The position numbers and the translations under genes are program-made. Below the pieces are notes generated by a model, which had not been told where the DNA came from, searched no databases, and was given only the letters and a program-made list of their open reading frames with translations. Shown here piece after piece: positions 29,026-64,000 of a DNA stretch of 64,000 bases; the stretch's first letter is position 1, and every line of letters starts with the position of its first letter. This DNA comes from an uncultured Thermoplasmatales archaeon (GTDB lineage: Archaea > Thermoplasmatota > SW-10-69-26): positions 76,014-140,013 of the forward strand of contig CAYNEI010000001.1 in NCBI GenBank assembly GCA_964396185.1, read 5' to 3'.

Positions 29026-29062
29026 GGGGGACTCGCCTCCAGCTCAAGGATTCCTTAGTGGG

Positions 29063-29181: not shown

Positions 29182-32100
29182 CTAACGTTCATCGCCGTCA
29201 GGCGATGCGGACGCGTCCGCATCGCGGGCGAGCACGGCCTGGAGCACCCAGCCGGCCACCCCGATGAGCACGAGCATGATGAGAAGCAAGGGGATCCAGC
29301 CGATGGGGTCATCGATGTCCACGGTGCCGGCCTGCGCGATCTCCACCTCGCCATCCTCGGTGACCATGCGCACGGTGAGCTCGTAGTCGCCGGCCTCCTC
29401 GAAGGTGAACGTGGCCGTGCCCTGGCCGGGGCGCTGGACCTCGATGGGCGCGCTGGCGACCTCAGCACCGTCCCGGGTGGCCACGGCGGTCAGCTTGCTC
29501 GCCGCGCGCTCCCAGGTCACGTTGATCTCCACGGGCTCGCCCGTGTCCCGGTCCCCATCGGCCTTGGCGTGGAGGAACGGGCCCTGGCCGCGCAGGAGCA
29601 CGGTCTCATGCGTGACGGTCTTCCCGTGGGCCTCGGCCCGGATGTGGACCAGGAGCTCGCCGCGCCAGTCCGGGAGCTGGATCGCGCCGTCCTCGATGGG
29701 CACCGTGGTCTCGCGCTCGGTGACACGGTGGCGCACCGTGATCGTGGTGTCCAAGGCGTCGTTGTCGGGATCGTCCACCGTGATGGGGAGCGTGTCCCCG
29801 TCGCGCTGGCCCACGGTGATGGTGGGCTCGGCGTCCTGCACGGTCAGACGCTCCGTGAGGGCGGCCTCGTTGCCCACGCGGTCTTGGGCGGTGAGCGAGG
29901 CCACGATCCGGTCCCCGCGCACGACGTTGTCCAGGGCCACGCGGTGGGTGCTGGAGGCCAGGGGGACGGGCAGTGTGGTGCCATCCACGGAGAAGGTGAG
30001 GGTGTCGAGGCCGCTGAGCTCTTCTCTGGCGGTGACGAGCACCTCGTGGCCCTGGATGTCCAGCAGGAGCTCCGGGGCCTCGTCGTCGAGCACGAGCTCA
30101 AGCGTGCGGTTGGCCTGGTTGCCCACACCATCGGTGGCCTGGGCGTGCACGGGGCCGCTGCCGAGCTCCCTGGCCGGCAGGGTCTCTCCGACGGGATCCA
30201 GGGAGAGGCGTCGGGGGAGCACGAGGTCGAACGCCGTGACCTCGCTGACATCGTCGGTGGCGGTGAAGGTGAGATTCGCTGTGGAGCGGGCCAGGATAGC
30301 TGTGGCGTTGCGCACGCCCTGGTCGGAGGTGATCTCGATGCGGGGCCCGCGCAGATCCGCGGTGAGCTCTTGGGAGGCGCTGGCTCCTTGGCCGAGATCA
30401 TCCACCGCGGTGACCGAGAGCGTGGCTTGCTCGCCGTGGAGCAGCGACGGCAGGTCCACGCTGATGTGCAGGCCGCGCTCTAGCAGCGTGACGCGCTCGC
30501 GCAGATCGGCCAGGCGCTGTCCGTCCTGGGTGGCCGTGATCGTGACGTTGCTGGGGCGCACGCTGCGGTCCTCCACCGTGATGGTGAGCTGGGCGGTGGA
30601 GCCCACGACGCTGGCACCGGGCAGGCGGATGCGTGGCTCTTGGGCGCGCTCGACCGTGAGGTTGGCGGTCTCGGTGGCTTGGTTGCCCCAGTGGTCGGTG
30701 ACCTCGACGGTCAACGTGTGGTTGCCGGCTTCCAGGCCGGGCACGGTGAGGTTGAACGCCGCTTCCAGGCTCTCGTGAGCGGCCAGCTCCATCTCCCCAT
30801 CGAGCACGCGCACGGTCAACGGTGGCGTCTCGTCGGTGGCCGAGAGGTCCACGTGGACCGGCAGGCCAGCTTCCTGGATGGGAGCACCCCTGAACCCGTT
30901 GATCTCCAGGTCCTCGAGCACCGGGGCTCGGGGCTCCCGGATGTTGTAGACGAGCAGCTCGCGCGAGATCGCACCGGCCACGTCCTCGGCCACGATGTGG
31001 ACCTCGTGGCGGCCGGGGCGATCCGTGGGCAGGGGGATGGAGACGTTCTGCTCCGTGGTGTTCGAGGCCAGCACGACCCCGTCACCGGTGGTCACGTTCC
31101 AGGTGATACAAGCCTCGACGCGCTGGCACCCGTCATCGGTGATGTTGAGACGGGTGTGGATGACCTGGTCCTCGTCGGCCTCCTCGGGAGGCGCGTCGAT
31201 CACCTGGATCGACGGGGGCTCGGGGTCGAGCTCAAGCTCCACGAAGCCGTCCAGCGTCGCATTGTTGCCATCCCAGTCCACCACGAAGAGATCCAGCGGC
31301 CCCGTGGGGGTCGAGGCCTCGATGGGGAGGGTGAGTTGGACATCGCGGGTGCCGTTGAAGGCGTCGGTGAGGCTGGCGCGAGCCAGCTCGGTGTCCTCCT
31401 GGGAGACGACCACGGAGCGCATGCCACCGCGCCGGTCGGTGATGTTGACGTCCAGGGTGACGTTGCCGCCCACGGGCCCGAAGAGCGTTCCCTCGACGGT
31501 GCCGGGGTCCGTGTCCACGTGCCGGATGCGCGGCGCGTTGGGGTTCCAGGTGGTGATCGAGAACGATTCGCCGCGCTCGACCTGAAGCGTCGGCTCCCCG
31601 CGGGTGCTGCTCACCGGGGTGCCGTCCACGCTGACGAGCTCGACGAGCCAGCCCTGCCAGGGCGCCCCGTCTCCCCAATCCCGGTAGTGCTCGGTAACGT
31701 CGAAGTTGAGCGGGATGTTCGAGGCGCAGTCCTCGCGCGTGTACGTGGTCGTGTGTGGGTCCGTGGTGTTCGGCAGGGTCTCCCACGTGGTGGTGGTGCC
31801 CCACGGTTGGAGCACGCGGCTGGCGCGCAGCGTGAACTCCCGGTCGCACTGCTTGGTGAACGTATCGGAGAACGTGAACCCCTTCAATTGGAGGGTCGCC
31901 TGCGAGAACGTCGCGTTGGTGTAGCTCGGGAGGAAGAACGGTTTCAGGAAGGCGATTTGGTCCTCCCGGATCTCGTAGGAGAACCCGTCGATCTCGCGTC
32001 CTCCAGCCCCGGTGTCGTCCACGACCACGACGCGCTCGATGCTCATGACCGTGGTCCGCTCGCCCTGCTGTTGGCCGGGCTGGGCCTCGGCCGGGGGTGT

Positions 32101-32643: not shown

Positions 32644-32669
32644 GCCGATGGCCAGCGTGGTGGTTCGGT

Positions 32670-33890
32670 TCAGATCTTCACCCCCGCACCGTGGGCGTGG
32701 CTGACCACGCCCAACGGGAGCTCCACCAGGGTGACCTGGAAGCCACGCAGAGCTTTCACGTTCTCCTCGTGGTTCTCGTAGAGCTCTTGTTCGAGCTCGT
32801 TGGTGGGCTCGGGCACGTTGGGCACGAGGGCTGTGACCGCGCAGTTATGCGCGAGCAAGAGGATCACGCCGTCGAGATCGCCTGGGTGCATGAACGGTGA
32901 GCACACGAGCACCTTGGCGCCCTCGTGGAGCCGGTGCATGTTGTCCCGGATGGCCGGCTCCAGCGGGAAGGTGCCCTCAGGCTCCATCTCGGCCAACTGC
33001 TGGAAGTAGCGGGCCTTGAAGGCCGAGGATCCGTCGCTTTTGAGCGCCCTGGGCTCTTGGCCCAGGAACAGTGCTGTGAAGGAGTCGCCGCCCTCGCTGG
33101 CCAGCCGGTAGCTCAGAGCCCCGGAGCGGGCCACCTCGTGGATGGGCGCGTCCTGGAAGGGGCCCATGGCGGTCCAGAGGCGGTGGTCGATGACGGCCAG
33201 GGCTTGCGTGGATCGCTCGTCCTGGTACTGGTTGACCATGAGATCGCCTGTGGCGGCCGAGGCCTTCCAGTTGACCAGGCGCAGGGGGTCCATGGGCAGG
33301 TACTCCCGGATGCTGTAGAACTCGCTGCCGGACCCGGGTTTCGTGCTGGAGAACTTGCCGGGCCGGGGGTAGCTGTGCTTGGGCCGGCCCACGGCGTCCC
33401 GGGGCCGGGGCTCGGAGGGGAGCACGGTGAGCGTGAGGCTCTCGGCCTGGATGTCGAGCACGCGTTCGACCAGGCGGAAGGGGTCGCTGGCCCGCACCTC
33501 CAGGGGTGCAAGCGTGTAGGAGCCGCGCACGGGGGTCTCGAGCTCGAACTCAGCGGACAGGGTCTCGCCTTTGCCCAGCACGCCCTGGACGCGGGCTTGG
33601 CCGTGGAGCACGATGCCCTGGGGGAGCGGTTGGTGGACGTCCACGCGCTGGAACCCGCCTGTGGAGGCCACCTCGTAGGTGAGCTCGGTGCCGCTGCCCT
33701 CGGGGATGCGCTCGTTGGCCGCACTGCGCGTGGCCTCGACGCGGATCTGGCGCGCGCTGATCTGGGCGGCCAGGGCCACCGCAAGGCCTGTAGCACCGAG
33801 CAGGGCGAGCACGAGGTGGTTGAGCGCGGCGGCCGCCACGAGCGCAGCGGCCGAGAAGGCGATGACGGTGATGCCTCGCTTGGTGATCAT
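32670..33890 (-). CDS. DUF58-family protein (406 aa)
   Basis: Two N-terminal TM helices are followed by the diagnostic core GSGSEFYSIREYLPMDPLRLVNWKASAATGDLMVNQYQDERS (G.EF...R.Y..GD..R.I.W..SA+...L.V+.). GGAGG lies 7 nt upstream. There is an ATGA overlap with the upstream gene. Confidence 0.85.
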   Translation of the reverse strand: MITKRGITVIAFSAAALVAAAALNHLVLALLGATGLAVALAAQISARQIRVEATRSAANERIPEGSGTELTYEVASTGGFQRVDVHQPLPQGIVLHGQARVQGVLGKGETLSAEFELETPVRGSYTLAPLEVRASDPFRLVERVLDIQAESLTLTVLPSEPRPRDAVGRPKHSYPRPGKFSSTKPGSGSEFYSIREYLPMDPLRLVNWKASAATGDLMVNQYQDERSTQALAVIDHRLWTAMGPFQDAPIHEVARSGALSYRLASEGGDSFTALFLGQEPRALKSDGSSAFKARYFQQLAEMEPEGTFPLEPAIRDNMHRLHEGAKVLVCSPFMHPGDLDGVILLLAHNCAVTALVPNVPEPTNELEQELYENHEENVKALRGFQVTLVELPLGVVSHAHGAGVKI

Positions 33891-56900: not shown

Positions 56901-57293
56901 GTTGAGCGTGTCGTCGGCCGAGCCGTCGGCTGCCAGGTGACCGGTGGGGAGCGTGGGGGAGCGCAGCGTGGCCCGGGTCCCGGAGCGGTACGAGCCGTCG
57001 CCCCAGGCGGTCACGCAACCGTCCTCGCTGCCAGCGAACGTGGTGTTCGTCCATCCCGTGCGGCCCTGGAGGATCTGGCCGAACCAGTCCTCCAGCGGGC
57101 AGTCCCAGGAGCGGATCGTGGTCGTGGCACGCGTGTTGTTCAGGGTCTCCAGCGGCAGCTCGTCCACGGCCTCGCCGGCGTCCGGGATCTCCTCGTCGGG
57201 GTCGGGCAGGGTGTCGTCGTCGACTTGAGCCACAGCCGTCGGTGGCACGACCGAGAGCATCATGAAGGCCAGCAGAAGCGAGAGGGCTCTCAT
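44994..57293 (-). CDS. Giant anchored surface protein (4099 aa from ATG 57293) with many CARDB-like repeats and jelly-roll-like modules
   Basis: GGAGGTG lies 6 nt upstream of ATG 57293 (MRALSLLLAFMMLSVVPPTAVAQ). The track start at 57302 is the GTG inside the SD. CARDB-type units include IPIPVLVENKGNVPLRNVTVTVAL, AAFSVTVENKGERQAKGVAVQASV, VPIQIVIENKGGVPATSAELTL, IQVSVENTGNVPLRGTLVAQ and VTIVANAENMGSQPLNNTPLGFLVDG. N-terminal and internal segments look like ..LTMRHAYQFE..DGGWLEVRTPGDSWTRL.. and ..VEIRLHATGG..GWWIDAFGLEY. The C-terminal anchor is VPGPSMLFLLAAASLVALAAKGVRRE. Confidence 0.88.
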   Translation of the reverse strand: MRALSLLLAFMMLSVVPPTAVAQVDDDTLPDPDEEIPDAGEAVDELPLETLNNTRATTTIRSWDCPLEDWFGQILQGRTGWTNTTFAGSEDGCVTAWGDGSYRSGTRATLRSPTLPTGHLAADGSADDTLNGVVNALREEGVSPETAGRLMGTCSAWPGFLDTGAMPLRQVCRNLIMGTQEIDVPTLRAGAGALHLTMRHAYQFEDPASIHGRDGGWLEVRTPGDSWTRLDPVAAYATRADGEKILCGAASNFQAERGRGSVGVFPFTSPGSDEDMDLGEESRPSEWAKFCESLLWVTTHPGSKEGTARTEGIQVNIDTSSFATGATQFYGYPGVIRGEGRGFIGTSAPAGSQNPEFVEHWFDLAPYAGESVEIRLHATGGPGITTKDGGWWIDAFGLEYTGPPTDIAVLIEHPTHDSSFPKGQVPAEVQVVNLGRLTSNPVDLVVRSGEMERRVAIPALEPVERNVTTISFPADAFGELNITAEIVPPGQAPGTPIPSDPYQLNNEATVTTTIEELTDIDLSVAAEGVEDGTASFNATIENRGNTPLSVPVQGTLIPIDRITRLPRADEAISLGEVGRTTVPHSRDVNVLGAVSPEANVGFDVQLPEPGVWALVLETPVDPGAQASVVVPFDTAAPPALTEEVTGVKEGPTSLLPNGTFETPEGTYTQDLLDSFRGPETRFVLQGESALATSGADLQIDASRDVSGFADHAFVGLGEDCDQTTVGIGPVNDVPLVGDALCASLVDGKAGFDLPDETGLVAVPETWQVRQHHLIAYELDPSEVLSERWEPGDELSVEFDHATKALYDSLAEDLGTGSRARAFIVPTQNDTDLVDAFREVQNVTIEGIPNATLRAAVEEVVGQANLDALLDQVFEIPGIREVPGDACQILGLEELSGVIGILEGLDDTGIVSEPGQPVNICGAPGYVRTVEEGCPSEPAFVDCALPEDDVSAHALALRELQGAVDAVEFTEPSGWEHIELTATEVIRQAILKNQGPGALETGIATEAIREGKFYVVFDLETVSNFEDVLASAAVTERPERVRPELEARAATGTLNPNACSSADNTVVVCKQDPFIKTRPELGWSPDAVPVWTVDNMTVQHERAGVEIRMERLCDAPLTASYACSKPTSALPPTGIQGWGFLPASENLTLPWNFEPLGGNPDSVAPGAFVWRGTALGDDRPSEFTQTHDHFKAESASTTPVKHVHPSGRVSIRTDDPVTYGVLQSPVLDLSGYASPVSEMHTRLSQLPDAVGKACDKEEDSTNGTVYTRVGWNVRARPVLADGSLGPAETIEPLGGYDNCSEVEDGNVPVLFNGTATHQTPPAIVKQADFRELTDVNFDAALLADCFQTEFGGSASFLVPDPTNACVPTELVFGHDEPVFALPTNWTDVQFDLTPFQGQRVVLEIHAMGLAKHARSAGQLRVDDWNVREGAPPLDLAADHDPAPFIAPGVEERFKLIVNNTGASTLQEATVRRVILDNDGCVAEDSHGDVIPPTVVPIALQDPDTGLPGLPPGKQMVFETSSLGWEAPDEELDRFERRLTVQTGPGQPISEAPELLPTTRMDDGSLVIRATGVDGDDCGDDLRRNFDHEIIGERSDVRVRTNQLSITAEGTRNPADRAELETRSSITPIGEVVPDPFYHKEYFFDVNEDEALVDVTATIPEDSGATRLTFRVIDPQGEEIGAMNVDNGDTDEELSIPVELPGEYTLVVEGQGLETTIQDSYSGDITVSWTEITVQRNVDIEPLDAVVKATLEDPWGQKAPETFLSPAPKGMAKEQGAEVTAKVTASAPGSRVVINVASNSDRPFWTVRVPTSDGNLEQKGSETGRVVFEDLEAGTYVALVLFRQAGVPFGQRVLPVTFEVLEAPVATDDPNPGDNVVRLTGLTRSLPRLVVSDIDPPRTAITGDEIPIPVLVENKGNVPLRNVTVTVALDPAGTERLADEPIPLLLPGKNATARVLITPRDAGSQTVLVTATAENPAASRSSEATLIAQGGDRLLVLTQQAITGQAGDYDHWTLTPQPRFGDGLRVPSQAREDLPLDGQLDLVASPVSALMLNGTIDLETGFDGVAVNWSERSEAVDRRDTTHPFHTAVSPDQVLASSHAGARAGEAVPAITGEHNEPVRAWSTDLAAGDMRPAKRIAPDAWDDFGGLTLDEPPSEGRRAFWLPTAPYLSATDENDPVHHELRLPLKTGEWCSMAEQVEQGATKMLVETFERRIMEDTWDPSVRFFTNQLVGPTGDGDPARLPGRIITALQDEHRTGWTRVIYEIDLRPAIEQILDQQRPWTKETKFEGEALGSCPLSGVHKSLPTNAHLIFALDGYSNHTNAMDLGWFIGEVNTKFGTDDSSPDVAMGPSRVGDREVGDNGDRCLDRYDFEFVNVPRYWGVCTTGPNPSRGDSGHVQIIQWSGSSARTIAPATEAELGQLTDAEEWISPLMRERELKEDRFKWVNENDQEKSREDLILPDRDGCIAWDTETIDGEVQRTGCSDDDQRLPNPFRYVDTATTLDIRAVRGCLETSANDDNPNCNGSDDPASAANATAVLRFNATANGSGNRVQVVGIPVESTEAFGEQAPARVDWEPLKLLGPDDARPWSFDCTSPLRADSDEERAPTPLGANANRLVGPLPGDVARVDSSTTNRTVCADLTPLAGHITRVGLRIWSPDDEGSMRIATTELLLAAPKAKTYQPTLRGLTDDTIHEGVFELAETAVQTMEPRFTHGVDAELVGSTFFRNQRVLGPDVIPELKIDVKEPGRSQANWELEVGVCIELENPEEDEHRNPRCLERRFHLDQDPLEHNHTWDVDVDPDEGSGSATITVPWAEIRDAHPELRDREDPAVPEDIVSMRVYVRSFPEELTQSVGDCPTDLEDLAEHERFACRQLVDPNPADDHVTLDIIGPAALQAPGLAQIEITPDRAPAGSPRNAILTFTNPTGAPVELAGELITQRNNRAVGSTPIPSTILLPWTPQEQITVPVDLPRQENTRMTVLAQVQQGIPDNDESDLTEAWDDYRATEDHEMDDVSGPAPAGGEGDIEMDPEFAKPALPGQVPSEEGYLVTADRGEVQAMLLAEMSTGDLRDMLDLHGGKEGPVPALVFQHQRSLANHPITSGANYGSMAVVAEARANNGGHLDACTTESPTSGLCTLAGYSPDPTIKRKAHENQQDMDICDRVDQANQPGRNTPAEWALEGEQADIAYGTRGGTGQPNLLSAWHTAVYPLTADEMAPLFAAGAASVEFYLVVNNCNTDAPSRVLVDQPGILSAMPQVTVAEEEILAGPGTEKRFRFTFENAGAGSDVFHVVPGTQVPRSWEMQITGPEGEILYDSETGIMEPIELAQHTEVEGTWRVNIPAGRSSGPTVNLDIVAYPLQAPGAVSGTGTNAYLTALDNNVEASVGKSGEALLRGLGGMQSAGRTEISTDAEPRPDISVVPEDISVQNLEVGREAAFSVTVENKGERQAKGVAVQASVSGPSGFRVLESLTGEKETTVSIPPGGQVKALFKWNPLEPGEHRLRIVADPDEGDVAVLATPELRAFQGLVYEEAECLPGVGCNNVADKIIDVTPLQRPDLAVELRGIPEAVTAGERVPIQIVIENKGGVPATSAELTLTENGLLPILEDLTVELPDIDPGQQHVIEADWIPVTAGEIVVIASVQAPNEFKAIRVDGTSAARDNTFTQEVEVRKAGLKVSLEKGVTIKPGQPTLVQATVSNDGTVPAQIGVEPVVGDSFAMAAVLDQPLTVEAGSEESVTVLLFASEGSSPGERTARLPTQPKAQAITFEVARDAQASFELSTTRIKPGTTPIQVSVENTGNVPLRGTLVAQGDNITGAAEVELPTATNATLTLPLTVKQGALPGSQDVALRLESEDLVTNETVRFTVQRAPAFAMDDTEPRRGINGTLALSTNLSNIGNAPAAGHLTIQGAAVLSSSPVVSLQPGQETTVRYDWSPELGTPGQLVLEDLAGTRLYEAELPSGPDPTDVHVASINLRPSVNLEQGMTVTIVANAENMGSQPLNNTPLGFLVDGELVGTQEIGLLEPGETQLVSHDVVLPRSGTLSLGAVNLEAFQSNDVAGQIESVEVAGSRFGSETVSTVPGPSMLFLLAAASLVALAAKGVRRE

Positions 57294-60200
57294 GGCTCCC
57301 ACCTCCGTCGAGCAAGCACAGCACCCAGGAGTGTCAACAGGATGGCCAGGGGTGCCGAGAGGGTGGGCACCGGGAGCAGGCCGCTGTCAGCGTCTAGAGC
57401 GGCGGCTTGCACGATGGGGCCGGGCAGGGTGCCCTCGTCGGGGTAGGCTTGCCCGTCCACCAGGAACCGCACGTCGGCGGGGTCGAAGAGGTCGGTGGTG
57501 GGGAAGGGGATGCTGGCCTGGTAGAGCCAGCGGCCTTCGCCACCGCTCTCCAGATGGAGCTCGTGGGTGGCGTCGCCGATCTCGATGCTCACGGAGCCTG
57601 GGCGCTGGCTGGCTTGGATGACGGTGCGAACGGTCACTGGGTCTCCCTCGTCTGCGATGCGGGGGTCGAACGAGTAGTGGGCAAGGCGGGTGGCGAGCTC
57701 GCCGTCCACCGTGGTGGCCGGCGACCAGACGCTCTGCTTCCCGCTGAGGTCCACGGCCTGGACGCGGTAGGCGTGGGCGAGCCCTGGGGTGGGGTCGTCG
57801 AGAACTTGGGTCTCGTTGGTGATCTGGGTCGTCGTACCCTCGGTGTTGGAGCGCTCCACGACGTAGTGGCCGATGCCGCCGTCGTCGTCGGCAGGCGCCC
57901 ACTGGATGAGCACCGTGCCGTCGTCGTTGACCTTGGTTTCCACGGCCTTGGGTGGGGTGGGTGGGGCGGCGTCGTCGGGGAGCTGGATGGCGCGCTCGAT
58001 GAGCGTGTGCTGGGATCCGGTGGCGAGCTGGGCGGCGATCTCCACCGTGACCTCCTGGCCAGGCGGGAGCCCGGTCAGCGTGAGGGTGTGGGTCTCGGCG
58101 GCCTCGGAGCTGGCCTTGGCGAGGACTTGGTCGCCGGTGAGCGCGGTGGCCACCAAGGGCGCGCTGCGGTCCAGGTCCACGGTGGCCTGGATCGTGCCTG
58201 GGCCCTCGGCCGTGATCCGCTCGCCGAGCACCTCAGGGGCCTCGAGCGCGGAGCGAAGGGGCAGGGTGACGCGCGTGGTGTGGCCGGCGCGGTCGATGCC
58301 CTCGGCCACGAGCACGTCGATGCCGCGCACGTCCACGGGCATGGTGATGCCCTGGATCACGGGGAACCAGGGGGTCCAGGAGCCGTTGGCGGCTTGCGTG
58401 CGGATGGATCGAAGCCCCGAAGCGTCATCCGTGGAGGCCACGCGCAGGTCAAGCATGGGGCGCTTGACGGGCAGCGGGTCCTCTGGGATGAGCTCGACGC
58501 TGGGGGGGTCGAGGTCCACGGGGACCTCGAAGGTGCGCGTCGCGTTGCGGCCCACGGCGTCCGTGGCCTGCACCTGGATGGTGTGGACGCCGGGCTGGGA
58601 GAGGGTGAGCGCCTTGAGCTTGTGCCCGTCGTGCAGGATGTGGGCGGTGGTCTCGGAGGCGTCGTCGGTGGCCGTGGGCTTGATGCGCACCTTGCTGGTG
58701 TACCAGCCGGTGGACGAGAGCTCGCCCTCGACCACGTGTCCCGGGACGGGCGCTCGCGTGTCGTGGATGGTGCGCGTGGCCAGGGCCACGGTCTCCAGCC
58801 CGGTGGTGAACGTGGCATGCAGGGTGAGGTTGCCGGCCGGGCAGTCCAGGATGGAGAGGGTGGCTTCGTGGCTGGATGGATCGTCCATGGGGGCCGAGAT
58901 GAAGCTGGGGATGCTGCGCGAGGCGCACGGCGTGCCGTCGGCGCGGGCTTCCAGGGTGACAAGCGTGCTGGGGTCGCCGCCCTCGACGGTGGGCATGGCA
59001 CCGGCCAGCCACGTGAACAGGGCTTGGTCGCCGGAGACCTCGGCCACAGGCTCCAGGGTGACGTTGAGGGTGCGCGCGGCGGTCACGTTCACGCTCTGGG
59101 TCACGCGGTGGCCAGCGAGGTCGATGATCTCCAGGGTCACGGGGTAGGTCTGGTTCGCCTTGAGCCGGGTGAAGGAGAGGTGGTGCTCGTCGGTGAAGGC
59201 CGACGGGAGCAGTTGAGTGGGTCCGCGCACGCGCTCAGGCGTGAGCTGGAGCTCGGCGTCCACGATGCGCACGGGCTCGTCGGCGGTGATCTCGAGGGTC
59301 GCACCGTGGGGCGCGCTTCGGGTCTGGGTCACGTTGATCTCGGGGGCGCGCAGGTCGTAGGTGATGACCGCGTCGAAGGCGGATCGGCTGAGCTCCTCGT
59401 TCCCGGTTTCGTCGAGGGCCACGGTGCGGACCTGGACGACGGCTTGCTCGTCCTCGCCCAGCCCTCGCAGCTCCTGGATGTCCACGGTGAGGCGCTTCCA
59501 GTCGGAGCGGTCGTCGCTCTCGCAGTCCTGGTCGACCTCCTCGAGATCGTCGAGCTCGTGGTAGGCGCCAGGCGCGCGCTCCCAGCTCTGCTCACCGAGC
59601 AGCCGGGTCTCGATGAACAGGCCGAGGACGTCGTCGGAGAGCTCCTGGTAGAGCAGATCGGCGGTGGTGGCGTTGGTGATCAGCGAGGTGCCGGCACCGC
59701 CGCAGGTGAGCACGAGGTCCTCGGGCGGTGCGAGGTTGATGCGGATCGAGCCGAGACCGGAGGAGGCCACGCGGCGGGCATCATCCACGGTGCGCACGCC
59801 GCCAGGCACCACGAGTCGGGCTTCCTCATCACCCGTCACCAGGCGTCCAGCGGCCCGGTCGATGTCGCCCGCGTCGCTCGAGTCCAGGTTGAACGTGACG
59901 TTGAGGGTGGCTCGGCGCTCCCAGCCGGTGCCATCTTGGCTGGGTCCAGCGTAGGTGCGGTTGAGCTCCACGAGACACGCCGCCTCGTCCAGGGGCTCGG
60001 TGTTGCACGTGAGCTCCTCGCGCACGCGGTCGTCGTTGGGCGGGAGCAGGACGGTGATGGGGTCGCCGTCGGGCCCGACGGGTAGCGGGCCTCGGATGCT
60101 GTCGTCCAGGCCGGCCACGGTCATGGAGCGGATGGGGCTGTCGTCGGTGACGTTGATGGGGAGCTCGAAGCGCAGGCAGTCGATGCGTCCGGGACTGGTG

Positions 60201-63200
60201 ACCGCTTCGAAGAGCTTCTCGAAGGAGCCCGGGCAGGCGAGCTGGGCGTAGCCCGCAGTGACCCGGTCGATCTGGGGCTTGCCGGGCGAGATGGAGAGCT
60301 CGGGGGACTCGTCGTCGACGATGAGGGTGTCGGCGATGCGCTGTTGCGGGATGTCCAGGACCCGGAACTCGAACCCGCGGTCGAAGACGAGCCAGAGCTC
60401 GACCTCGTTGGGTCCCTCGGCCAGGGGAAGCGTGGAGCTGCCGGGCGTGAAGCCGAAGAGGGGAGCGAGTTCGTCGTCCTCGACGAGCCGGTAGGTGGTC
60501 ATCCAGAGGCCGAGGTCGTCGTTCCAGCTCACGTCACTGATGCGGTCGTCGGCAGCCGAGTAGACCGTGCCCTTGTGGGCCAGCACGGGGTAGACGTGGG
60601 GGACGTGGTTGAGCTGCATCGGGGACCAGACCTCCACGGCCTGGGGCCGCGACGTGCTGGATTGGGACTTGGCGCGCACCCAGATGCCATCCAGGTAGGT
60701 GGGGAGCTCGGTCGTGTTGTCGTCGTGGCTCTCGATCCAGGTGCCGATGGGGTCAGGGAGGCTGGGTCGCACGGGATCCCCGAACGGGGTCTCGTAGTCG
60801 ACACGCAGCGTGCCGTCGACCTCGGCGTTGGCGCCCAGCAGGGTCTCAAGCGCGCCGTGGAAGGTGAGGTTGTAGCGGTAGTCGCCCTCAGGCAGGAGAA
60901 CGCGGCCGGCCTCGTGGCCGCCGGTGCCGTCGACGTGGTGGGGTGTCGGGAAGGCGTCTGTGGAGCAGGCGATCCCCTCGACGGGCACCACAGATAGGAT
61001 GCCGCTGTTGCCGCCGTCGTCGACGATAGTGCAGATCACGGGGCCTTCGAGCACGACGGTGTCCCGGGTGGCGTTCGGGATGCGGGGCTCCCAGATGGGG
61101 CTGGGACCGATGTCGTGGAACTTGCTTGTCTCGGTCGAGTTGACATGGAGCTCGAGCACGGCCCAGCAGCCAGACAGGCCTTGGGCCAGCGGGTTGCCGC
61201 GGGGGACGTTGCTGTCGTGGATCTCCAGGCCGAGCGAGGCGTTCTGGCCGCCCTCGTCGCTGGCGCGACCGATATCACACGGGTCCAGGGTGTCGAGGAG
61301 GTTGACAGGCACCTCGAGCTCCGAGCGCAGCGAGATGTGCATCTTCTCGTCCAGGGTCGGCCCTGTGCCGCAGCTCATGCCATCCACCACGAGCGCCTTG
61401 CCGTCGCTCTCGGCGAACGAACGGGGTTGGCCCGTGCAGATCTCCGCGGAGAGCAGGTCCACGAAGGACTCGAGACTCCGGTCGGCGGTCTCGGACACGG
61501 TTCCCACAGGCGTGGTCGCCCACGGGAGCACGTTGTCGATGCCCTGGGCATCCGCCCAGCGGCGCTCGATGGTGGAGGCGGCAGGCAGATCGTTGAGGAG
61601 CTGGCGAGCCAGCGGGTAGGCCTCGCCGATGACGTAGGGGACACCCTGATCGTCCAGGGTCTCGGCAGTCGCCTCGGTGAAGCTCAACAAGGCGATGACC
61701 GTCGCCAGGCCTCCCACCCAGTTCCCGGAGCAGAACACGTTGCGGGCCGCCCGCAGGGCGCTGTCGTTGATGCTCGGGTGGACAGCGTTCGTGGAGAGCT
61801 CGTTGTCGCACCTCTTGAGGGTCTCGTCCACGCCCCCGTCCTCGCACTCGATGCCGTTCCAGTCGTTGTCGTTGCCCCATGCACGGACGTCGATGTCGGT
61901 GCGGGAGAGCTCGTAGGTGTCCGAGCCGCCCAGGTCGATGAAACGCGTGATCCAGTACGGGAGGTTGTTCACGGTGGTGGGGTCGAACTGCTGGCAGGCG
62001 TCCTCGACACCGTCGCCGTCCGAGTCGCCGGTGATGACCTCGCCGGGACCGGGGAGGTCGTGGATGCGGTACGTGTCCGAGCCCTGGCTGCCCAGGAAGA
62101 GGGCAGCCACGGAAGCCCCGGGTAACAAGCCTTGGATGAAGGGGGGTTGAACGAGTGCGCGGTTGCTTTCCCCCACGTCGTCGCAGCCGCCTTGGGCGTT
62201 CTCGACACAGGAGCGCCAGTCGATGGCACCCAGGCTTGCGGGTCCGACGGTGTAGTCCGAGCCGGAGGTCACGACTGCGCCGGCGATGATGCGGCCGTCC
62301 TGGAAGACGGCGCCATTGGTATCGCCGGTGCGCACGTCGAGCACGACGCCGCCGAGGCTGCCTTGGCCCGTCTGGAACGTGTTGCGGCCGCGGCCACCGT
62401 CCAGCAGCACGGCGGTGGTGTAGTCCGGCATGGCTTGCTGGCTGTTCCCGAGATCCCCGGGATCGATGGTCTCCTCCAGGCGCACGCCAGCCATCTGGCC
62501 ATCACCGGTGTCGTAGCGGTCGGTGCCGTTGGCATCGTAGACGAGCAGGGTGAGCCGGTCCGCCGTCATGGGGACCGTGGCGTTGAAGGTCACGCTGGAG
62601 ACGTTGCCCATGTAGTGGTCGTCGCCCTGGATGTCGGCGACCACGGCGGCCACACCCGCGGCGACCAGTTGGCGTTCGTGCACATTGGTTGTATCCGCGC
62701 GCACGTGTGCCGTGTCCCCGAGGTAGGTGTCATCCCCTGAGGCGTCCAGCACCAGCATGGGAAGCGATTGCGTACTGGAGGCCGAGCTGGACTCGGTGAT
62801 GTCGACGAAGAGGTTCGTCGGAGTCGCGTTGATGTATGTGTCGTCGCCGGCGGCGTCGATGAGGATCGCTGGGAAGAGGCCATCGTGGATGTCGTTCCGG
62901 TCGGTGAGGGCCATCTCCAGCAAGCCCGGGAGCTCAAGGTCTTGGAAGCCCTCCGGGAGCCTGAACCCGAAGATGGAACCGGAGCCGAGTTCCAGGATCG
63001 AGACGCTCGGCCGGGCCTCTGCCGTCATGTTCGAGACCGTGATCGTCCCGTTGCTCAGCTCGGTCGTGTTGGCGAAGTAGCCCCGTTGGAGGGCTTGAAC
63101 GGTGAAGAAGTGGGTCCTGAAAACCTCGCCAGCGAAACTGCACTCGTTCGACTGTGTTTCATCCTCACAGTCAGCGTTCGAAGCGCCGGAGCCGGTTGGC

Positions 63201-64000
63201 ACCATCACCTGTTCCCAATAGCGCGCAGCCCCTTTGCCGTCCTCCTCGAAGGAGACACTCGGGTCGAGGCGCTCGCCACCCGCGATGGGGGTGAAGCCCT
63301 CGGCGCGACCGTCGAGATCCAAGGCGGTGGCATGGGCGCGGTAGATCGAGGGAGTCCCCGTCAAGCCACCGGAGGAGTCGGCGACCGAGAAGAGCGTGGA
63401 GTTGTAGAACGCGGTCCCGTGGCCGAAGTCGTCGAGCCGGTAGGTGTCATCGCCTAGCGTGTCCACGAAGGCGGCCAAGCTGGGGAGGTTCATGGGCAGT
63501 TGCTCGCCGGTCTTGGGCATGACCGCTCCCATGCCGTTCTCGGCACGGTACCGGTCATCTCCCCTCGCATCGAAGAGGAAGCCGTAGCCGTCGAGCTCCA
63601 CGAGGCCGAGCCCGTCAGTGGTGCGGTAGTCGTCCGAGCCGTTGAGATCGATGATGCCCGCCGTGGCCCCACCAGCGGCGTAGGCGACGCGATCGCCCCG
63701 ATAAGTGTCGTCGCCGTCCAGGTCGATGACGATACTGGCCGGCTGGGGAACGGCTAGCGTTGCTTCGATGTCGGTGAAGTTGTCCGCCCGTCTGCCCTCG
63801 CGGCCGACGCTATCGCCGGCGATTTCAAGGAAGACCTCGGTGAACACGTCCACGAGGAAGTTGCCCGTCGATATGCCGCCATCGGTCTCCTCGTCGATGG
63901 GGTCCGTGACCTCGCTGACCCCCGCGCCGGGGCCGCGGGCATGCAGGATGCGCTTGGTGCCGTTGGCATGCGCGACGTTCTTGTACGTGTCGTTGCCGCC
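57290..64000 (-). CDS. Giant anchored surface protein, 5'-truncated by the right window edge (>2236 aa): RTX-like G(D/N)DTY motifs, Ig-like domains, FN3 domain
   Basis: The frame stays open from the track's GTG (63853) to nt 64000 (..GGNDTYKNVAHANGTKRILHARGPG..), so the true start is outside the window. Motifs DGDDTY, NGSDDY, RGDDRY, LGDDTY, AGDDTY, SGDDTY, QGDDHY and GGSDTY recur. An FN3-like segment lies at about 57707-57964 (LIQWAPADDDGGIGHYVVERS..YRVQAVDLSGKQSVWS). The C-terminal anchor is LPVPTLSAPLAILLTLLGAVLARRRWEP. Its TGA overlaps the next ATG (ATGA). Confidence 0.85.
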   Translation of the reverse strand, partial: GGNDTYKNVAHANGTKRILHARGPGAGVSEVTDPIDEETDGGISTGNFLVDVFTEVFLEIAGDSVGREGRRADNFTDIEATLAVPQPASIVIDLDGDDTYRGDRVAYAAGGATAGIIDLNGSDDYRTTDGLGLVELDGYGFLFDARGDDRYRAENGMGAVMPKTGEQLPMNLPSLAAFVDTLGDDTYRLDDFGHGTAFYNSTLFSVADSSGGLTGTPSIYRAHATALDLDGRAEGFTPIAGGERLDPSVSFEEDGKGAARYWEQVMVPTGSGASNADCEDETQSNECSFAGEVFRTHFFTVQALQRGYFANTTELSNGTITVSNMTAEARPSVSILELGSGSIFGFRLPEGFQDLELPGLLEMALTDRNDIHDGLFPAILIDAAGDDTYINATPTNLFVDITESSSASSTQSLPMLVLDASGDDTYLGDTAHVRADTTNVHERQLVAAGVAAVVADIQGDDHYMGNVSSVTFNATVPMTADRLTLLVYDANGTDRYDTGDGQMAGVRLEETIDPGDLGNSQQAMPDYTTAVLLDGGRGRNTFQTGQGSLGGVVLDVRTGDTNGAVFQDGRIIAGAVVTSGSDYTVGPASLGAIDWRSCVENAQGGCDDVGESNRALVQPPFIQGLLPGASVAALFLGSQGSDTYRIHDLPGPGEVITGDSDGDGVEDACQQFDPTTVNNLPYWITRFIDLGGSDTYELSRTDIDVRAWGNDNDWNGIECEDGGVDETLKRCDNELSTNAVHPSINDSALRAARNVFCSGNWVGGLATVIALLSFTEATAETLDDQGVPYVIGEAYPLARQLLNDLPAASTIERRWADAQGIDNVLPWATTPVGTVSETADRSLESFVDLLSAEICTGQPRSFAESDGKALVVDGMSCGTGPTLDEKMHISLRSELEVPVNLLDTLDPCDIGRASDEGGQNASLGLEIHDSNVPRGNPLAQGLSGCWAVLELHVNSTETSKFHDIGPSPIWEPRIPNATRDTVVLEGPVICTIVDDGGNSGILSVVPVEGIACSTDAFPTPHHVDGTGGHEAGRVLLPEGDYRYNLTFHGALETLLGANAEVDGTLRVDYETPFGDPVRPSLPDPIGTWIESHDDNTTELPTYLDGIWVRAKSQSSTSRPQAVEVWSPMQLNHVPHVYPVLAHKGTVYSAADDRISDVSWNDDLGLWMTTYRLVEDDELAPLFGFTPGSSTLPLAEGPNEVELWLVFDRGFEFRVLDIPQQRIADTLIVDDESPELSISPGKPQIDRVTAGYAQLACPGSFEKLFEAVTSPGRIDCLRFELPINVTDDSPIRSMTVAGLDDSIRGPLPVGPDGDPITVLLPPNDDRVREELTCNTEPLDEAACLVELNRTYAGPSQDGTGWERRATLNVTFNLDSSDAGDIDRAAGRLVTGDEEARLVVPGGVRTVDDARRVASSGLGSIRINLAPPEDLVLTCGGAGTSLITNATTADLLYQELSDDVLGLFIETRLLGEQSWERAPGAYHELDDLEEVDQDCESDDRSDWKRLTVDIQELRGLGEDEQAVVQVRTVALDETGNEELSRSAFDAVITYDLRAPEINVTQTRSAPHGATLEITADEPVRIVDAELQLTPERVRGPTQLLPSAFTDEHHLSFTRLKANQTYPVTLEIIDLAGHRVTQSVNVTAARTLNVTLEPVAEVSGDQALFTWLAGAMPTVEGGDPSTLVTLEARADGTPCASRSIPSFISAPMDDPSSHEATLSILDCPAGNLTLHATFTTGLETVALATRTIHDTRAPVPGHVVEGELSSTGWYTSKVRIKPTATDDASETTAHILHDGHKLKALTLSQPGVHTIQVQATDAVGRNATRTFEVPVDLDPPSVELIPEDPLPVKRPMLDLRVASTDDASGLRSIRTQAANGSWTPWFPVIQGITMPVDVRGIDVLVAEGIDRAGHTTRVTLPLRSALEAPEVLGERITAEGPGTIQATVDLDRSAPLVATALTGDQVLAKASSEAAETHTLTLTGLPPGQEVTVEIAAQLATGSQHTLIERAIQLPDDAAPPTPPKAVETKVNDDGTVLIQWAPADDDGGIGHYVVERSNTEGTTTQITNETQVLDDPTPGLAHAYRVQAVDLSGKQSVWSPATTVDGELATRLAHYSFDPRIADEGDPVTVRTVIQASQRPGSVSIEIGDATHELHLESGGEGRWLYQASIPFPTTDLFDPADVRFLVDGQAYPDEGTLPGPIVQAAALDADSGLLPVPTLSAPLAILLTLLGAVLARRRWEP

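What the first reader, a model, noticed from the sequence alone, without database searches (positions are those of the whole stretch)
29182..64000. A >35-kb translationally coupled operon: four giant surface proteins plus a DUF4350 / DUF58 / polytopic-membrane tail
Seen in sequence: seven same-strand ORFs run from the right edge down to 29182 with almost no intergenic DNA.
- ATGA overlap at 57290-57293.
- GTGA overlap at 44994-44997.
- TAG abutting ATG at 41016/41017.
- ATGA overlaps at 34933-34936 and 33887-33890.
- A 26-nt gap at 32644-32669.
GGAGG-type SD sites are embedded in the 3' ends of the upstream genes. The products are >2236, 4099, 1326, 2027, 349, 406 and 1153 aa, about 11,600 codons inside the window. 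A TATA-like box and a 156-nt gap appear only after the last gene.

Established knowledge: DUF58 proteins are normally encoded beside MoxR-class AAA+ ATPases. DUF4350 and DUF4129 genes travel in the same neighbourhoods in Actinobacteria and Halobacteria, and the function of these modules is still unknown.

Inference: here that enigmatic module is hard-wired to a set of mega-adhesin-like proteins (TSP3, CARDB, Ig-like, FN3, RTX-like). This suggests one dedicated machine for building, anchoring or remodelling a giant cell-surface structure used for cell-cell, host-symbiont or virus interaction. I am not aware of a characterised system with this composition.
Basis: partly seen in the sequence, partly recalled or inferred. 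Interest (0 to 1): 0.85.

Follow-up and report, generated by a model that had tools for sequence, protein, structure and literature searches.

The report
Giant archaeal surface-protein operon lacking MoxR
A conserved ~36-kb run of seven tightly coupled genes in an uncultured archaeon (probably Thermoplasmatota-related) joins giant, probably glycosylated surface proteins to a membrane DUF4129/DUF4350/DUF58 module that has lost its usual MoxR ATPase gene; it is real and unusual in scale, but its parts belong to known kinds and its function is untested.

Summary
Seven minus-strand genes (G1-G7, 29182 to beyond 64000) have the stated junctions, a GC3 of 0.87-0.90, and no TATA-like hexamer, T-run or AT-rich stretch across 35 kb. 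G1 is 2618 aa in full, so the seven genes span about 35.96 kb and 11,978 codons.

Pfam recovers DUF58 (G6), DUF4350 (G5) and a near-threshold DUF4129 at the cytoplasmic C-terminus of G4. It also recovers TSP3, CARDB, Ig-like and FN3 domains.

Five relatives (DUF58 51-56% identical) keep the order G3-G4-G5-G6-G7-G8. One of them also keeps G1-G2, preceded by a PKD-domain gene.

The core is a variant of a known but uncharacterised module, DUF4129-DUF4350-MoxR-DUF58. Poseidoniia MAGs carry it with an equally giant TSP3/Ig DUF4129 protein. Here MoxR is missing from the cluster, the window and all relatives' loci, although 75 of 80 other DUF58 loci have it.

G7 has a 7-TM domain found in only five proteins among 1.84 billion. 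N-glycosylation sequons are strongly enriched in G1, G2 and G7.

The host is archaeal (conserved BRE/TATA) and not a salt-in halophile.

Best reading: a membrane platform that anchors or organises a giant glycoprotein surface coat. Verdict: a new variant of a known kind, of moderate interest.

The parts
57290..64000 (-). G1: C-terminal 2236 of 2618 aa. Signal peptide lies outside the window. Ten hhDxxGxDxY motifs, an FN3 domain near the C-terminus, and a C-terminal TM helix followed by RRR. Rich in N-glycosylation sequons.
   Evidence: FN3: Pfam 19.9 bits and titin FN3 at E=2e-8. Sequons: 30 observed against 11 expected, z=6.3. One orthologue, P0027, at 34% identity in the same position.
44994..57293 (-). 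G2: 4099-aa surface protein. Signal peptide, at least 4 CARDB domains, DUF7507/DUF11 (CLIPPER-type) domains, and a C-terminal 'PGPS'+TM+basic tail. Its ATG overlaps the G1 stop (ATGA).
   Evidence: Orthologue of 3855 aa in L088. Sequon z=3.7.
41017..44997 (-). G3: 1326-aa surface protein. Signal peptide, CARDB domain, and a C-terminal TM helix followed by RRR. GTGA overlap with G2.
   Evidence: Orthologues at 34-37% identity were aligned in L005, L086 and L087. L130 has a large, unaligned gene in the same position. C-terminal tails are conserved as TM plus RR.
34933..41016 (-). G4: 2027-aa giant DUF4129 subunit. N-terminal TM helix, an ectodomain of about 1850 aa (13 TSP3-type DxDxDGxxDxxE motifs, Big_3_5, Big_1/MG4), a second TM helix at about 1887-1915, and a cytoplasmic DUF4129 domain at 1947-2009.
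   Evidence: Homologous over 821 aa, including the tail, to the 1997-aa DUF4129 protein of Poseidoniia locus L010. Orthologues at 43-45% identity. No transglutaminase core.
33887..34936 (-). G5: DUF4350 protein of 349 aa. N-terminal TM helix, extracytoplasmic DUF4350 domain, C-terminal TM helix, and an acidic cytoplasmic tail.
   Evidence: Pfam 49.1 bits. Topology from hydrophobic segments and flanking Arg residues. Orthologues at 41-47% identity.
32670..33890 (-). G6: DUF58 protein of 406 aa. TM hairpin, cytoplasmic beta-sandwich and VWA-like alpha/beta domain. It is the most conserved gene of the cluster.
   Evidence: Pfam 39.2 bits. AF2 model with pLDDT 83. Foldseek matches the sandwich to TRAP-beta/CARDB and the alpha/beta domain to the VWA domains of Rpn10, BatB (3ibs) and CLCA1. 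Ten orthologues at 51-56% identity, then a drop to 31% or less.
29182..32643 (-). G7: 1153 aa. An orphan domain with 7 predicted TM helices (1-190), a linker, about 8 Ig-like beta-sandwich domains (370-1110), a C-terminal TM helix and an acidic tail. 60% of its Asn residues lie in N-glycosylation sequons.
   Evidence: An exhaustive phmmer search of residues 1-230 against 1.84e9 representatives found only itself and 4 orthologues. Sequon z=7-11 in all five.
29026..29181 (-). Intergenic region with an archaeal-type BRE/TATA (AAAACACCTTTATACCC; TTTATA at 29068-29063) followed by a GGAGG SD. This is the promoter of G8 and the likely end of the G1-G7 transcription unit.
   Evidence: The same CTTTATA ... 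GGAGG arrangement is conserved in L005, L086 and L087.
27841..29025 (-). G8: 394-aa secreted protein with no Pfam hit. It always follows G7 in relatives and has its own promoter.
   Evidence: Aligned orthologues at 36-41% identity in L005, L086 and L087. L130 and L131 have unaligned genes in the same position.
24008..25873 (-). P621: C-terminally anchored protein. Its homologue lies upstream of the PKD gene and the G1 homologue in the relative L088.
   Evidence: 29% identity, E=5e-40.
16714..18417 (-). PKD567: PKD-domain surface protein with a 'PGPG'+TM+RR tail. In L088 its homologue is the first gene of the operon and overlaps the G1 homologue by 4 nt.

Best explanation
The locus is a vertically conserved operon of an uncultured archaeon, probably related to Thermoplasmatota/Poseidoniia. 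It encodes a membrane-anchored cell-surface assembly made of two kinds of parts.

(a) A membrane platform, derived from the widespread but uncharacterised four-gene module DUF4129-DUF4350-MoxR-DUF58:
- G4 has a TM helix, a Ca2+-binding TSP3/Ig ectodomain of about 1850 aa, a second TM helix and a cytoplasmic DUF4129 domain.
- G5 has an extracytoplasmic DUF4350 domain held between two TM helices.
- G6 has a TM hairpin and a cytoplasmic beta-sandwich plus VWA-like DUF58 domain.
- G7 is clade-specific, with 7 TM helices, about 8 Ig-like domains and a C-terminal TM helix.

(b) Three giant C-terminally anchored surface proteins (G1-G3, about 8000 aa together), plus PKD567, P621 and G8 as looser associates. 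G1 and G2, like G7, are probably N-glycosylated.

Proposed mechanism (inference). The products are made in fixed proportion from one long, translationally coupled mRNA. G4-G7 form a trans-membrane scaffold. Its cytoplasmic DUF58/DUF4129 parts organise or gate assembly. Its ectodomains, together with G1-G3, build a Ca2+-stabilised glycoprotein coat or adhesive layer.

The dedicated MoxR ATPase gene has been lost from the cluster. The platform therefore works either without ATP-driven remodelling or with a MoxR encoded elsewhere.

Shown: the gene structure, the domain content, the predicted topology, the conserved synteny, the absence of MoxR from the locus, and the sequon enrichment. Inferred: physical association of the products, a single transcript, and the coat or adhesion function.
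For: - Coupled junctions and SD sites.
- No TATA-like hexamer, T5 run or AT-rich window in 29182-64000. No consensus promoter, and no terminator-like site on the coding strand, in the scanned part 27000-46000.
- Coding GC3 of 0.87-0.90.
- Pfam hits to DUF58, DUF4350, DUF4129, TSP3, CARDB and Big domains.
- The order G3-G4-G5-G6-G7-G8 is conserved in five relatives. L005, L086 and L087 were aligned; L130 and L131 were judged from gene sizes and Pfam.
- One 41-kb contig also carries PKD-G1-G2.
- Poseidoniia loci L008-L010 carry a giant DUF4129 protein, DUF4350, MoxR and DUF58 in that order.
- L007 has a 2539-aa TSP3/transglutaminase/DUF4129 protein followed by DUF4350 and DUF58 without MoxR.
- MoxR is found beside DUF58 in 75 of 80 loci from GTDB representative genomes, but in none of the clade's loci. 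There is no remnant in the window.
- The G6 model shows a TM hairpin, a beta-sandwich and a VWA-like fold.
- The G7 model shows 7 helices, an Ig chain and a TM helix.
- Signal peptides and C-terminal TM-plus-Arg tails are conserved in orthologues.
- Sequon enrichment has z=6.3 (G1), 3.7 (G2) and 7-11 (G7 and its orthologues).
- The TSP3 and GxDxY motif counts are far above chance.
- The BRE/TATA before G8 is conserved.
Against: - There is no expression, interaction or localisation data.
- G1-G2 conservation was seen in only one relative. The large-database search with G1 returned only G1 itself and that one homologue.
- The contig of GCA_964581775.1 has 63 kb upstream of its DUF58 gene, yet no G1 homologue from it surfaced.
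- PKD567 and P621 are placed differently in the window and in L088, so membership of the outer genes is loose.
- DUF4129 in G4 is 0.7 bit below Pfam's cut-off.
- The function of the parent DUF4129-DUF4350-MoxR-DUF58 module is itself unknown, so any mechanism is by analogy with MoxR/VWA systems.
- The taxon is inferred only from distant DUF58 neighbours (26-33% identity) and promoter type.
Confidence: 0.5

Rival explanations
1. The module G4-G5-G6 (with or without G7) is still an ordinary MoxR-dependent maturation system, whose ATPase gene has merely moved elsewhere in the genome. Its only client is its own giant DUF4129 subunit, G4. G1-G3 are unrelated adhesins or coat proteins that are simply co-transcribed with it.
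For: DUF58 keeps every residue that is invariant across the alignment with MoxR-linked relatives (A2), and it is the most conserved gene of the cluster, as expected if it still binds a conserved partner. MoxR is almost always the neighbour of DUF58 (75 of 80 loci). The Poseidoniia version has the giant DUF4129 protein but no G1-G3 homologues in the stretch that was read.
Against: No MoxR lies within the 64-kb window or within 10 kb of the DUF58 gene in the clade's loci, and there is none in the read stretch of L007. G3 is fused to G4 by abutting or overlapping codons in the window and in the four relatives whose G3/G4 junction could be read.
Confidence: 0.3
2. The cluster is a variable 'surface-protein island' of fast-evolving adhesins for particle, host or cell-cell attachment. 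The DUF module is a passenger with a separate housekeeping role in the envelope.
For: Almost the whole 64-kb window encodes secreted or anchored proteins: six tandem paralogues, PKD567, P1197, P621 and G8. The surface genes diverge faster (33-37% identity) than DUF58 (51-56%). Toxin-antitoxin and M78/DUF4411 genes and a GC dip interrupt the region. Thrombospondin-repeat genes in Poseidoniales have been read as adhesion factors (PMC6461757).
Against: Gene order and coupling are conserved down to about 34% protein identity, which is not typical of a shuffling island. GC content and GC3 are uniform across G1-G8.
Confidence: 0.15
3. The adjacency is due to chance or is an assembly or annotation artefact (shadow ORFs in high-GC DNA, or a chimeric contig).
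For: High-GC DNA yields many long spurious ORFs, for example a 1397-aa antisense ORF at 34960-39153.
Against: The GC3 signature, the domain hits, identical sequence in independent Logan assemblies, and orthologous clusters in five other assemblies.
Confidence: 0.02

Closest known systems
DUF4129-DUF4350-MoxR-DUF58 gene module, as in the Poseidoniia/Thermoplasmatota MAG loci L008-L010 and L006. The same module is annotated in Actinobacteria and Halobacteria (own knowledge). Its function is uncharacterised.
   Same: The order DUF4129 then DUF4350 then DUF58 is the same. The predicted topologies are the same. In Poseidoniia the DUF4129 protein is likewise about 2000 aa with TSP3, Big_3_5, Big_1/MG and CarboxypepD_reg-type domains, and it aligns with G4 over 821 aa.
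   Different: There is no MoxR gene between DUF4350 and DUF58; the two genes overlap by 4 nt. The gene after DUF58 is a 1153-aa 7-TM/Ig protein, not a 270-aa polytopic protein, and hhalign detects no homology between them (probability 0.5%). Three further giant genes are coupled upstream.
PFNA cluster of Bifidobacterium (pkb2-fn3-aaa_atp[MoxR]-duf58-tgm; PMC8430577)
   Same: A large secreted Ig/FN3-type surface protein is encoded in one operon with DUF58 and a membrane protein of the transglutaminase/DUF4129 type. It is interpreted as an adhesion or host-interaction system.
   Different: PFNA has a Ser/Thr kinase, a MoxR ATPase and a transglutaminase core, all absent here. It has no DUF4350 gene among the five core genes listed. 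It is bacterial, and far smaller.
TgpA-type transglutaminases (TgpA_N - Transglut_core - DUF4129) in MoxR-DUF58-TgpA operons
   Same: A cytoplasmic C-terminal DUF4129 domain follows a large extracytoplasmic domain. The relative L007 retains a Transglut_core in its giant DUF4129 protein (65 bits).
   Different: The window's G4 has no transglutaminase core. The TgpA_N hit of the G7 N-terminus is faint (15.7 bits against a cut-off of 30) and did not reappear at E<=0.1 in full-length scans of G7 and its orthologues.
Bacteroides aerotolerance (Bat) type MoxR-DUF58-BatA/B(VWA)-BatC/D/E operons
   Same: A membrane DUF58 protein with a VWA-like fold. BatB (3ibs) is among the structural matches of G6. 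Most of the Bacteroidota loci retrieved show MoxR directly upstream of DUF58.
   Different: No MoxR was found here, and no separate BatA/B-type VWA protein or TPR protein among the Pfam hits to the genes scanned. DUF4350, DUF4129 and the giant proteins are present instead.
Giant Ca2+-dependent repeat adhesins and archaeal surface glycoproteins (for example RTX adhesins such as MpIBP/SiiE, halomucin, S-layer glycoproteins; own knowledge)
   Same: Sizes of thousands of residues, Ig-like/CARDB/FN3 repeats, acidic Ca2+-binding motifs, and N-glycosylation sequon enrichment.
   Different: There are no RTX nonapeptide (HemolysinCabind) hits and no T1SS genes. Export is by an N-terminal signal peptide, and anchoring is by a C-terminal TM helix with an Arg cluster. 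The tail is not a recognised PGF-CTERM or other named sorting signal.

Membership tests
DUF58 (PF01882) family | Match to the Pfam model above the gathering score | tested here: met
   G6 scores 39.2 bits against a cut-off of 23.4, E=5.8e-10. The signature block G-x-G-x-EF..R.Y.P.D..R.VNWKA is conserved.
DUF58 (PF01882) family | N-terminal TM hairpin followed by a beta-sandwich and a VWA-like alpha/beta domain | tested here: met
   AF2 model with pLDDT 83. Foldseek hits to VWA domains (Rpn10, BatB, CLCA1) and to Ig-like sandwiches.
DUF58 (PF01882) family | Encoded directly beside a MoxR-class AAA+ ATPase (typical context, not part of the domain definition) | tested here: not met
   There is no AAA_3/MoxR gene in the window (tblastn best E=0.28; Pfam) or in the clade's loci. 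MoxR is present in 75 of 80 other DUF58 loci.
DUF4350 (PF14258) family | Match to the Pfam model above the gathering score | tested here: met
   G5 scores 49.1 bits against a cut-off of 30.4. Orthologues are also annotated as DUF4350.
DUF4129 (PF13559) family | Match to the Pfam model above the gathering score, at the C-terminus after a TM helix | tested here: inconclusive
   G4 residues 1947-2009 score 24.1 bits against a cut-off of 24.8. The region aligns with the C-terminal half of the L010 protein, whose DUF4129 domain scores 37.6 bits. The L007 protein, whose DUF4129 domain scores 38.5 bits, is also a G4 homologue. Weak or faint DUF4129 hits are recorded for orthologues.
Four-gene module DUF4129-DUF4350-MoxR-DUF58 | All four genes present in this order on one strand | tested here: not met
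   The order DUF4129 (G4), DUF4350 (G5), DUF58 (G6) is kept, but MoxR is absent. G5 and G6 overlap by ATGA. The complete module is seen in L008-L010.
PFNA cluster (Bifidobacterium) | Core genes pkb2 (STPK), fn3, MoxR, duf58 and tgm in fixed order | tested here: not met
   Only the duf58 equivalent and FN3/Ig-type surface proteins are present. There are no kinase, MoxR or Transglut_core hits. The definition is taken from PMC8430577.
TgpA-type transglutaminase | TgpA_N polytopic domain, Transglut_core with a Cys-His-Asp triad, and DUF4129 in one protein | tested here: not met
   G4 lacks Transglut_core. The TgpA_N hit is only a faint match in a different protein, G7 (15.7 against 30 bits), and did not reappear at E<=0.1 in full-length scans of G7 and its orthologues.
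RTX / T1SS giant adhesins | GGxGxDxUx nonapeptide repeats (HemolysinCabind) and adjacent T1SS genes | tested here: not met
   No HemolysinCabind or RTX family hit in Pfam or NCBIfam. The G1 motif is hhDxxGxDxY at a spacing of 25-94 residues within its two main runs. No ABC, MFP or TolC genes were found in the window.
Archaeosortase / exosortase substrates (PGF-CTERM, PEP-CTERM and similar) | C-terminal signature motif, TM helix and Arg cluster matching a named sorting-domain model above its cut-off | tested here: inconclusive
   The tails have the tripartite shape, conserved in orthologues. For G1-G3 only sub-threshold generic hits were found (JDVT-CTERM 22 against 27; MYXO-CTERM 19.4 against 20). 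GC_trans_RRR scores 16.8 against 15.85 for PKD567. There is no PGF-CTERM hit and no sortase gene in the window.

The most novel reading that the evidence does not exclude
The DUF4129/DUF4350/DUF58 platform, freed from MoxR and joined to a clade-specific 7-TM/Ig protein, is a self-contained anchoring and assembly device for about 12,000 residues of glycosylated giant proteins. It would then be a previously undescribed type of archaeal cell-surface organelle or coat, in a lineage with no cultured member. It would also give the first functional handle on the orphan DUF4129-DUF4350-(MoxR)-DUF58 module that is spread across Actinobacteria, Halobacteria and Thermoplasmatota.
Probability: 0.2. Interest if true: 0.75.

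Novelty: new variant of a known kind. Interest (0 to 1): 0.5.

Why it matters
The DUF4129-DUF4350-MoxR-DUF58 module is widespread, yet only two papers in the searchable library mention even two of the three DUF names together, and neither characterises the module. This clade offers a natural experiment. The ATPase gene is gone, the DUF4129 subunit is a giant Ca2+-binding surface protein, and the module is translationally welded to further giant glycoproteins. That points to a cell-surface assembly or anchoring role for the whole module family.

It also documents one of the longest tightly coupled operons one is likely to meet in an archaeon, about 36 kb and 7-8 genes. It adds a clade-restricted 7-TM domain and a family of six tandem secreted paralogues with no known domains. 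For the ecology of uncultured Thermoplasmatota-like archaea, such a coat is likely to govern attachment to particles, hosts or viruses.

Tried and rejected
- Retrieving the window's own contig to see the operon start. The exact proteins are on an NCBI contig of 291,347 bp, but it is not in the position index. The Logan contigs stop inside G1.
- A genome-contig scan with G1 found no relative.
The clade's own genomes were not recovered, so the taxon remains inferred.
- The large-database search with full G2 timed out. Its N-terminal 1000 aa gave nothing.
- The JGI metagenome scan with the G1 alignment found only distant matches to the GxDxY repeat region, with no DUF58, DUF4350 or MoxR nearby.
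- Named sorting signals for the C-terminal tails: only sub-threshold generic hits for G1-G3.
- G7 N-terminus as TgpA_N: a faint hit that did not reappear at E<=0.1 in full-length scans of G7 and its orthologues.
- G7 N-terminus as a homologue of the 270-aa polytopic protein that follows DUF58 in Poseidoniia: hhalign probability 0.5%.
- A transglutaminase core in G4 or any other window protein: none.
- A MoxR pseudogene in the window: none.
- Sequence matches of G5 and G6 to solved structures: none.
- Internal repeats or paralogy among G1-G3 by BLASTP: none.
- tRNA or Rfam features in the window: none.
- Sample accessions in the literature: none.
- The Halobacteria or salt-in halophile reading is rejected. 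Probable cytoplasmic proteins have pI 5.5-8.7.


Full report
**1. Observation**

The window has seven consecutive minus-strand ORFs:

| Gene | Coordinates | Length |
|---|---|---|
| G1 | 57290 to beyond 64000 | 2618 aa in full |
| G2 | 44994-57293 | 4099 aa from the ATG |
| G3 | 41017-44997 | 1326 aa |
| G4 | 34933-41016 | 2027 aa |
| G5 | 33887-34936 | 349 aa |
| G6 | 32670-33890 | 406 aa |
| G7 | 29182-32643 | 1153 aa |

The G1 frame stays open to base 64000. The matching database protein, P0026, is 2618 aa and has an N-terminal signal-like sequence. G1 therefore starts about 1146 nt past the edge. The seven genes cover about 35.96 kb and 11,978 codons.

GGAGG-type motifs lie 6-10 nt before the starts of G2, G4 and G6.

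These are genuine genes. GC3 is 0.87-0.90, whereas the long antisense ORFs show the mirror pattern of GC1 about 0.90. Identical sequence occurs in independent Logan assemblies.

Between 29182 and 64000 there is no T5 run, no TTTAWA hexamer and no 30-nt window with at least 60% A+T on either strand. The only minus-strand TTTATA of the whole 64 kb lies in the gap after G7. The bacterial-consensus scan, run on 27000-46000 only, found no promoter-like site and no terminator-like site on the minus strand.

**2. What the genes encode**

Pfam and NCBIfam give the following:
- G6 is DUF58 (39.2 bits).
- G5 is DUF4350 (49.1 bits).
- G4 has TSP3_bac repeats, Big_3_5 and Big_1/MG4. Its C-terminal DUF4129 domain scores 24.1 bits against a cut-off of 24.8.
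- G3 has CARDB.
- G2 has four CARDB stretches plus DUF7507/DUF11.
- G1 has a weak FN3 hit, confirmed by titin FN3 matches at E=2e-8.
- G7 has Big_13 and other Ig-like hits.

Motif counts are far above chance. G4 has 13 DxDxDGxxDxxE Ca2+-binding motifs in residues 55-929. G1 has 10 hhDxxGxDxY motifs, against 0.09 expected by shuffling. No RTX model matches, so the 'RTX-like' label is not confirmed.

Predicted topologies, from hydrophobic segments and flanking arginines:
- G1-G3 have a signal peptide, a huge ectodomain, and a C-terminal TM helix with an Arg cluster.
- G4 has a TM helix, an ectodomain of about 1850 aa, a second TM helix and a cytoplasmic DUF4129 domain.
- G5 has a TM helix, an external DUF4350 domain, a second TM helix and an acidic cytoplasmic tail.
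- G6 has a TM hairpin followed by a cytoplasmic domain.

The AF2 model of G6 (pLDDT 83) shows the hairpin, a beta-sandwich and an alpha/beta domain. That domain matches VWA domains, including BatB of the Bacteroides MoxR-linked operon.

The AF2 model of G7 has 7 N-terminal helices at low confidence. About eight Ig-like sandwiches follow (pLDDT 80-90), then a C-terminal TM helix.

The 230-residue N-terminal membrane domain of G7 is an orphan. An exhaustive phmmer search of 1.84 billion representative proteins returned only G7 and four orthologues.

N-glycosylation sequons are strongly enriched:
- G1: 30 observed against 11 expected, z=6.3.
- G2: z=3.7.
- G7: 18 against 4.3, with 60% of all Asn residues in sequons.
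- G7's four orthologues and the G1 homologue: z between 5 and 11.
- G4, G5, G6 and G8: no enrichment.

This fits exposed archaeal glycoproteins.

**3. Conservation**

DUF58 (G6) has ten orthologues at 51-56% identity, followed by a gap down to 31% or less.

Five of their contigs could be read:
- L005, from NCBI MAG GCA_964581775.1
- L086/L088, one 41-kb Logan contig
- L087
- L130
- L131

All show G3-like, G4-like, DUF4350, DUF58, G7-like and G8-like genes in the same order with overlapping junctions, as far as each contig reaches. L131 begins inside the G4-like gene. L005, L086 and L087 were aligned by tblastn. L130 and L131 were judged from gene sizes and Pfam annotations.

The 41-kb contig also carries, in order:
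- a homologue of the window's P621
- a PKD gene, homologous to the window's PKD567, that overlaps the next gene by 4 nt
- a 2589-aa G1 homologue (34% identity)
- a 3855-aa G2 homologue

A TATA-like element lies about 27 nt upstream of the PKD gene's start. In that relative the operon therefore starts one gene earlier.

In the window, PKD567 (16714-18417) and P621 (24008-25873) lie downstream on the same strand. The outer genes are thus linked but movable.

Identity to the window by gene:

| Gene | Identity |
|---|---|
| DUF58 (G6) | 51-56% |
| G4 | 43-45% |
| G5 | 41-47% |
| G8 | 36-41% |
| G3 | 34-37% |
| G7 | 33-34% |
| G1 / G2 | 34-35% |

The cytoplasmic component is the most constrained and the exposed ones the least. 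The linkage is not chance.

**4. What it derives from**

A scan of GTDB representative genomes with the DUF58 alignment returned Thermoplasmata, Thermoplasmatota and Poseidoniia MAGs as the nearest relatives, at 26-33% identity.

Poseidoniia loci L008-L010 carry, in order:
- a 1997-aa DUF4129 protein with Big_3_5, CarboxypepD_reg, Big_1 and MG domains
- DUF4350
- MoxR (AAA_3, 214 bits)
- DUF58

In L010 a TSP3 protein precedes these. The 1997-aa protein aligns with G4 over 821 residues, including the tail.

L006 has a small DUF4129 protein, MoxR and DUF58. Seventy-five of the 80 retrieved DUF58 loci have MoxR beside DUF58.

In the window's clade DUF4350 and DUF58 overlap by 4 nt. No MoxR is detectable in the 64-kb window (best tblastn E=0.28) or in any of the clade's loci.

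A second MoxR-less case is L007 (Thermoplasmatota CSMAG_283). There a 2539-aa protein is followed directly by DUF4350 and DUF58. That protein has 18 TSP3 repeats, a Transglut_core (65 bits) and DUF4129. This ties the giant DUF4129 proteins to TgpA-type transglutaminases. The window's G4 has no such core.

The 'enigmatic triad' is therefore a MoxR-less derivative of the DUF4129-DUF4350-MoxR-DUF58 module, and G4 is one of its subunits and not a separate adhesin.

**5. Host**

The gap after G7 holds AAAACACCTTTATACCC followed by GGAGG and the ATG of G8. The same CTTTATA ... GGAGG layout is conserved before G8 in three relatives. This is an archaeal BRE/TATA promoter.

Probable cytoplasmic proteins have pI 5.5-8.7, so the organism is not a salt-in halophile. 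GC is 66-74% in the clade. One MGIII Poseidoniia locus reaches 66%. Assignment to Thermoplasmatota is inference only.

**6. Mechanism (inference)**

By analogy with MoxR/VWA systems (established knowledge), the cytoplasmic DUF58 VWA-like domain is the adaptor side of a trans-membrane complex. The other members present DUF4129 inside the cell and DUF4350 and giant ectodomains outside.

In this clade the complex is co-translated with three further giant anchored glycoproteins and a clade-specific 7-TM/Ig protein. The most economical reading is a membrane platform that anchors and organises a Ca2+-stabilised glycoprotein coat or adhesive layer. It would operate either without ATP-driven remodelling or with a MoxR encoded elsewhere.

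I put about 0.5 on this general picture. I put 0.3 on the narrower rival that the module serves only G4 with a trans-encoded MoxR while G1-G3 are mere co-transcribed adhesins. I put 0.15 on a 'variable adhesin island with passenger module', and 0.02 on an artefact.

**7. Comparison with known systems**

The closest systems are:
- the complete four-gene module in Poseidoniia
- the PFNA cluster of Bifidobacterium, pkb2-fn3-MoxR-duf58-tgm, which already links an FN3 surface protein to MoxR-DUF58-transglutaminase (PMC8430577)
- TgpA-type transglutaminases
- Bat operons
- giant Ca2+-dependent adhesins

Membership fails for each on at least one tested defining feature: MoxR, kinase, transglutaminase core, BatA/B, or RTX/T1SS. 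The C-terminal tails have the shape of sorting signals, but those of G1-G3 match no named type above threshold.

Thrombospondin-repeat genes in Poseidoniales have been interpreted as adhesion factors (PMC6461757). Literature on the DUF triad is essentially nil.

**8. Verdict**

The finding is real, conserved and unusually large. Its novelty lies in the MoxR-less configuration, the clade-specific G7, and the scale of the coupled giant genes, not in a new kind of component. I rate it a new variant of a known kind, with interest 0.5.

Noticed in passing
window 1-16504 (+): 1-1737 (cut by the left edge), 2082-4601, 4815-7331, 7645-10173, 11320-13773, 14075-16504: Six tandem paralogues of about 810-840 aa, 32-70% identical. 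Signal peptides were seen in the five complete copies, and one copy examined has 16 Cys. There is no Pfam hit even at E=0.1. Homologues also lie just after G8 in relatives L005 and L087, so the family is part of the same conserved surface-protein neighbourhood.
   Followed up: partly
L007 1171-11248 (Thermoplasmatota archaeon CSMAG_283, JAUVCY010000004.1): A 2539-aa protein with 18 TSP3 repeats, a transglutaminase core (65 bits) and a C-terminal DUF4129 domain. It is followed directly by DUF4350 and DUF58 with no MoxR. This is a second, distant MoxR-less case and a link between the giant DUF4129 proteins and TgpA-type transglutaminases.
   Followed up: partly
window 18433-20270 (+): A gene pair of an M78 peptidase (IrrE-like, 448 aa) and DUF4411 (163 aa, 174 bits). 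It sits in a local GC dip (0.62 against about 0.69) and interrupts the minus-strand run of surface-protein genes. It is possibly an inserted toxin-antitoxin or defence-type element.
   Followed up: no
window about 27243-27920 (-); L001 12437-13122: A MazE antitoxin / PemK toxin pair lies directly downstream of G8, between the cluster and P621.
   Followed up: no
window 20312-23905 (-) and 24008-25873 (-): Two further minus-strand genes. P1197 has an N-terminal hydrophobic stretch (probably secreted) and only a weak Big_6 hit. P621 has a C-terminal TM helix. In L088 the P621 homologue lies upstream of the PKD-G1 genes, showing rearrangement of the outer genes between relatives.
   Followed up: partly
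L008 5611-6423, L009 7167-7979, L010 11266-12078: In Poseidoniia the gene after DUF58 encodes a conserved 270-aa polytopic membrane protein (about 6-7 TM helices; no Pfam hit for the L010 copy). It occupies the same position as G7's 7-TM domain but shows no detectable homology to it (hhalign probability 0.5%).
   Followed up: yes
L089-L129 (JGI metagenome contigs): The GxDxY-repeat region of G1 (residues about 310-600 of P0026) has distant relatives (25-42% identity) on many unrelated metagenome contigs with GC from 36% to 70%. It is therefore an unannotated repeat-domain family of wider distribution, not linked to DUF58 or DUF4350 in those contigs.
   Followed up: partly
window 10360-11010 (+): A 216-aa ORF between two of the tandem paralogues has a weak AbiEi_4 antitoxin-like N-terminus (21.8 bits, below the cut-off).
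   Followed up: no
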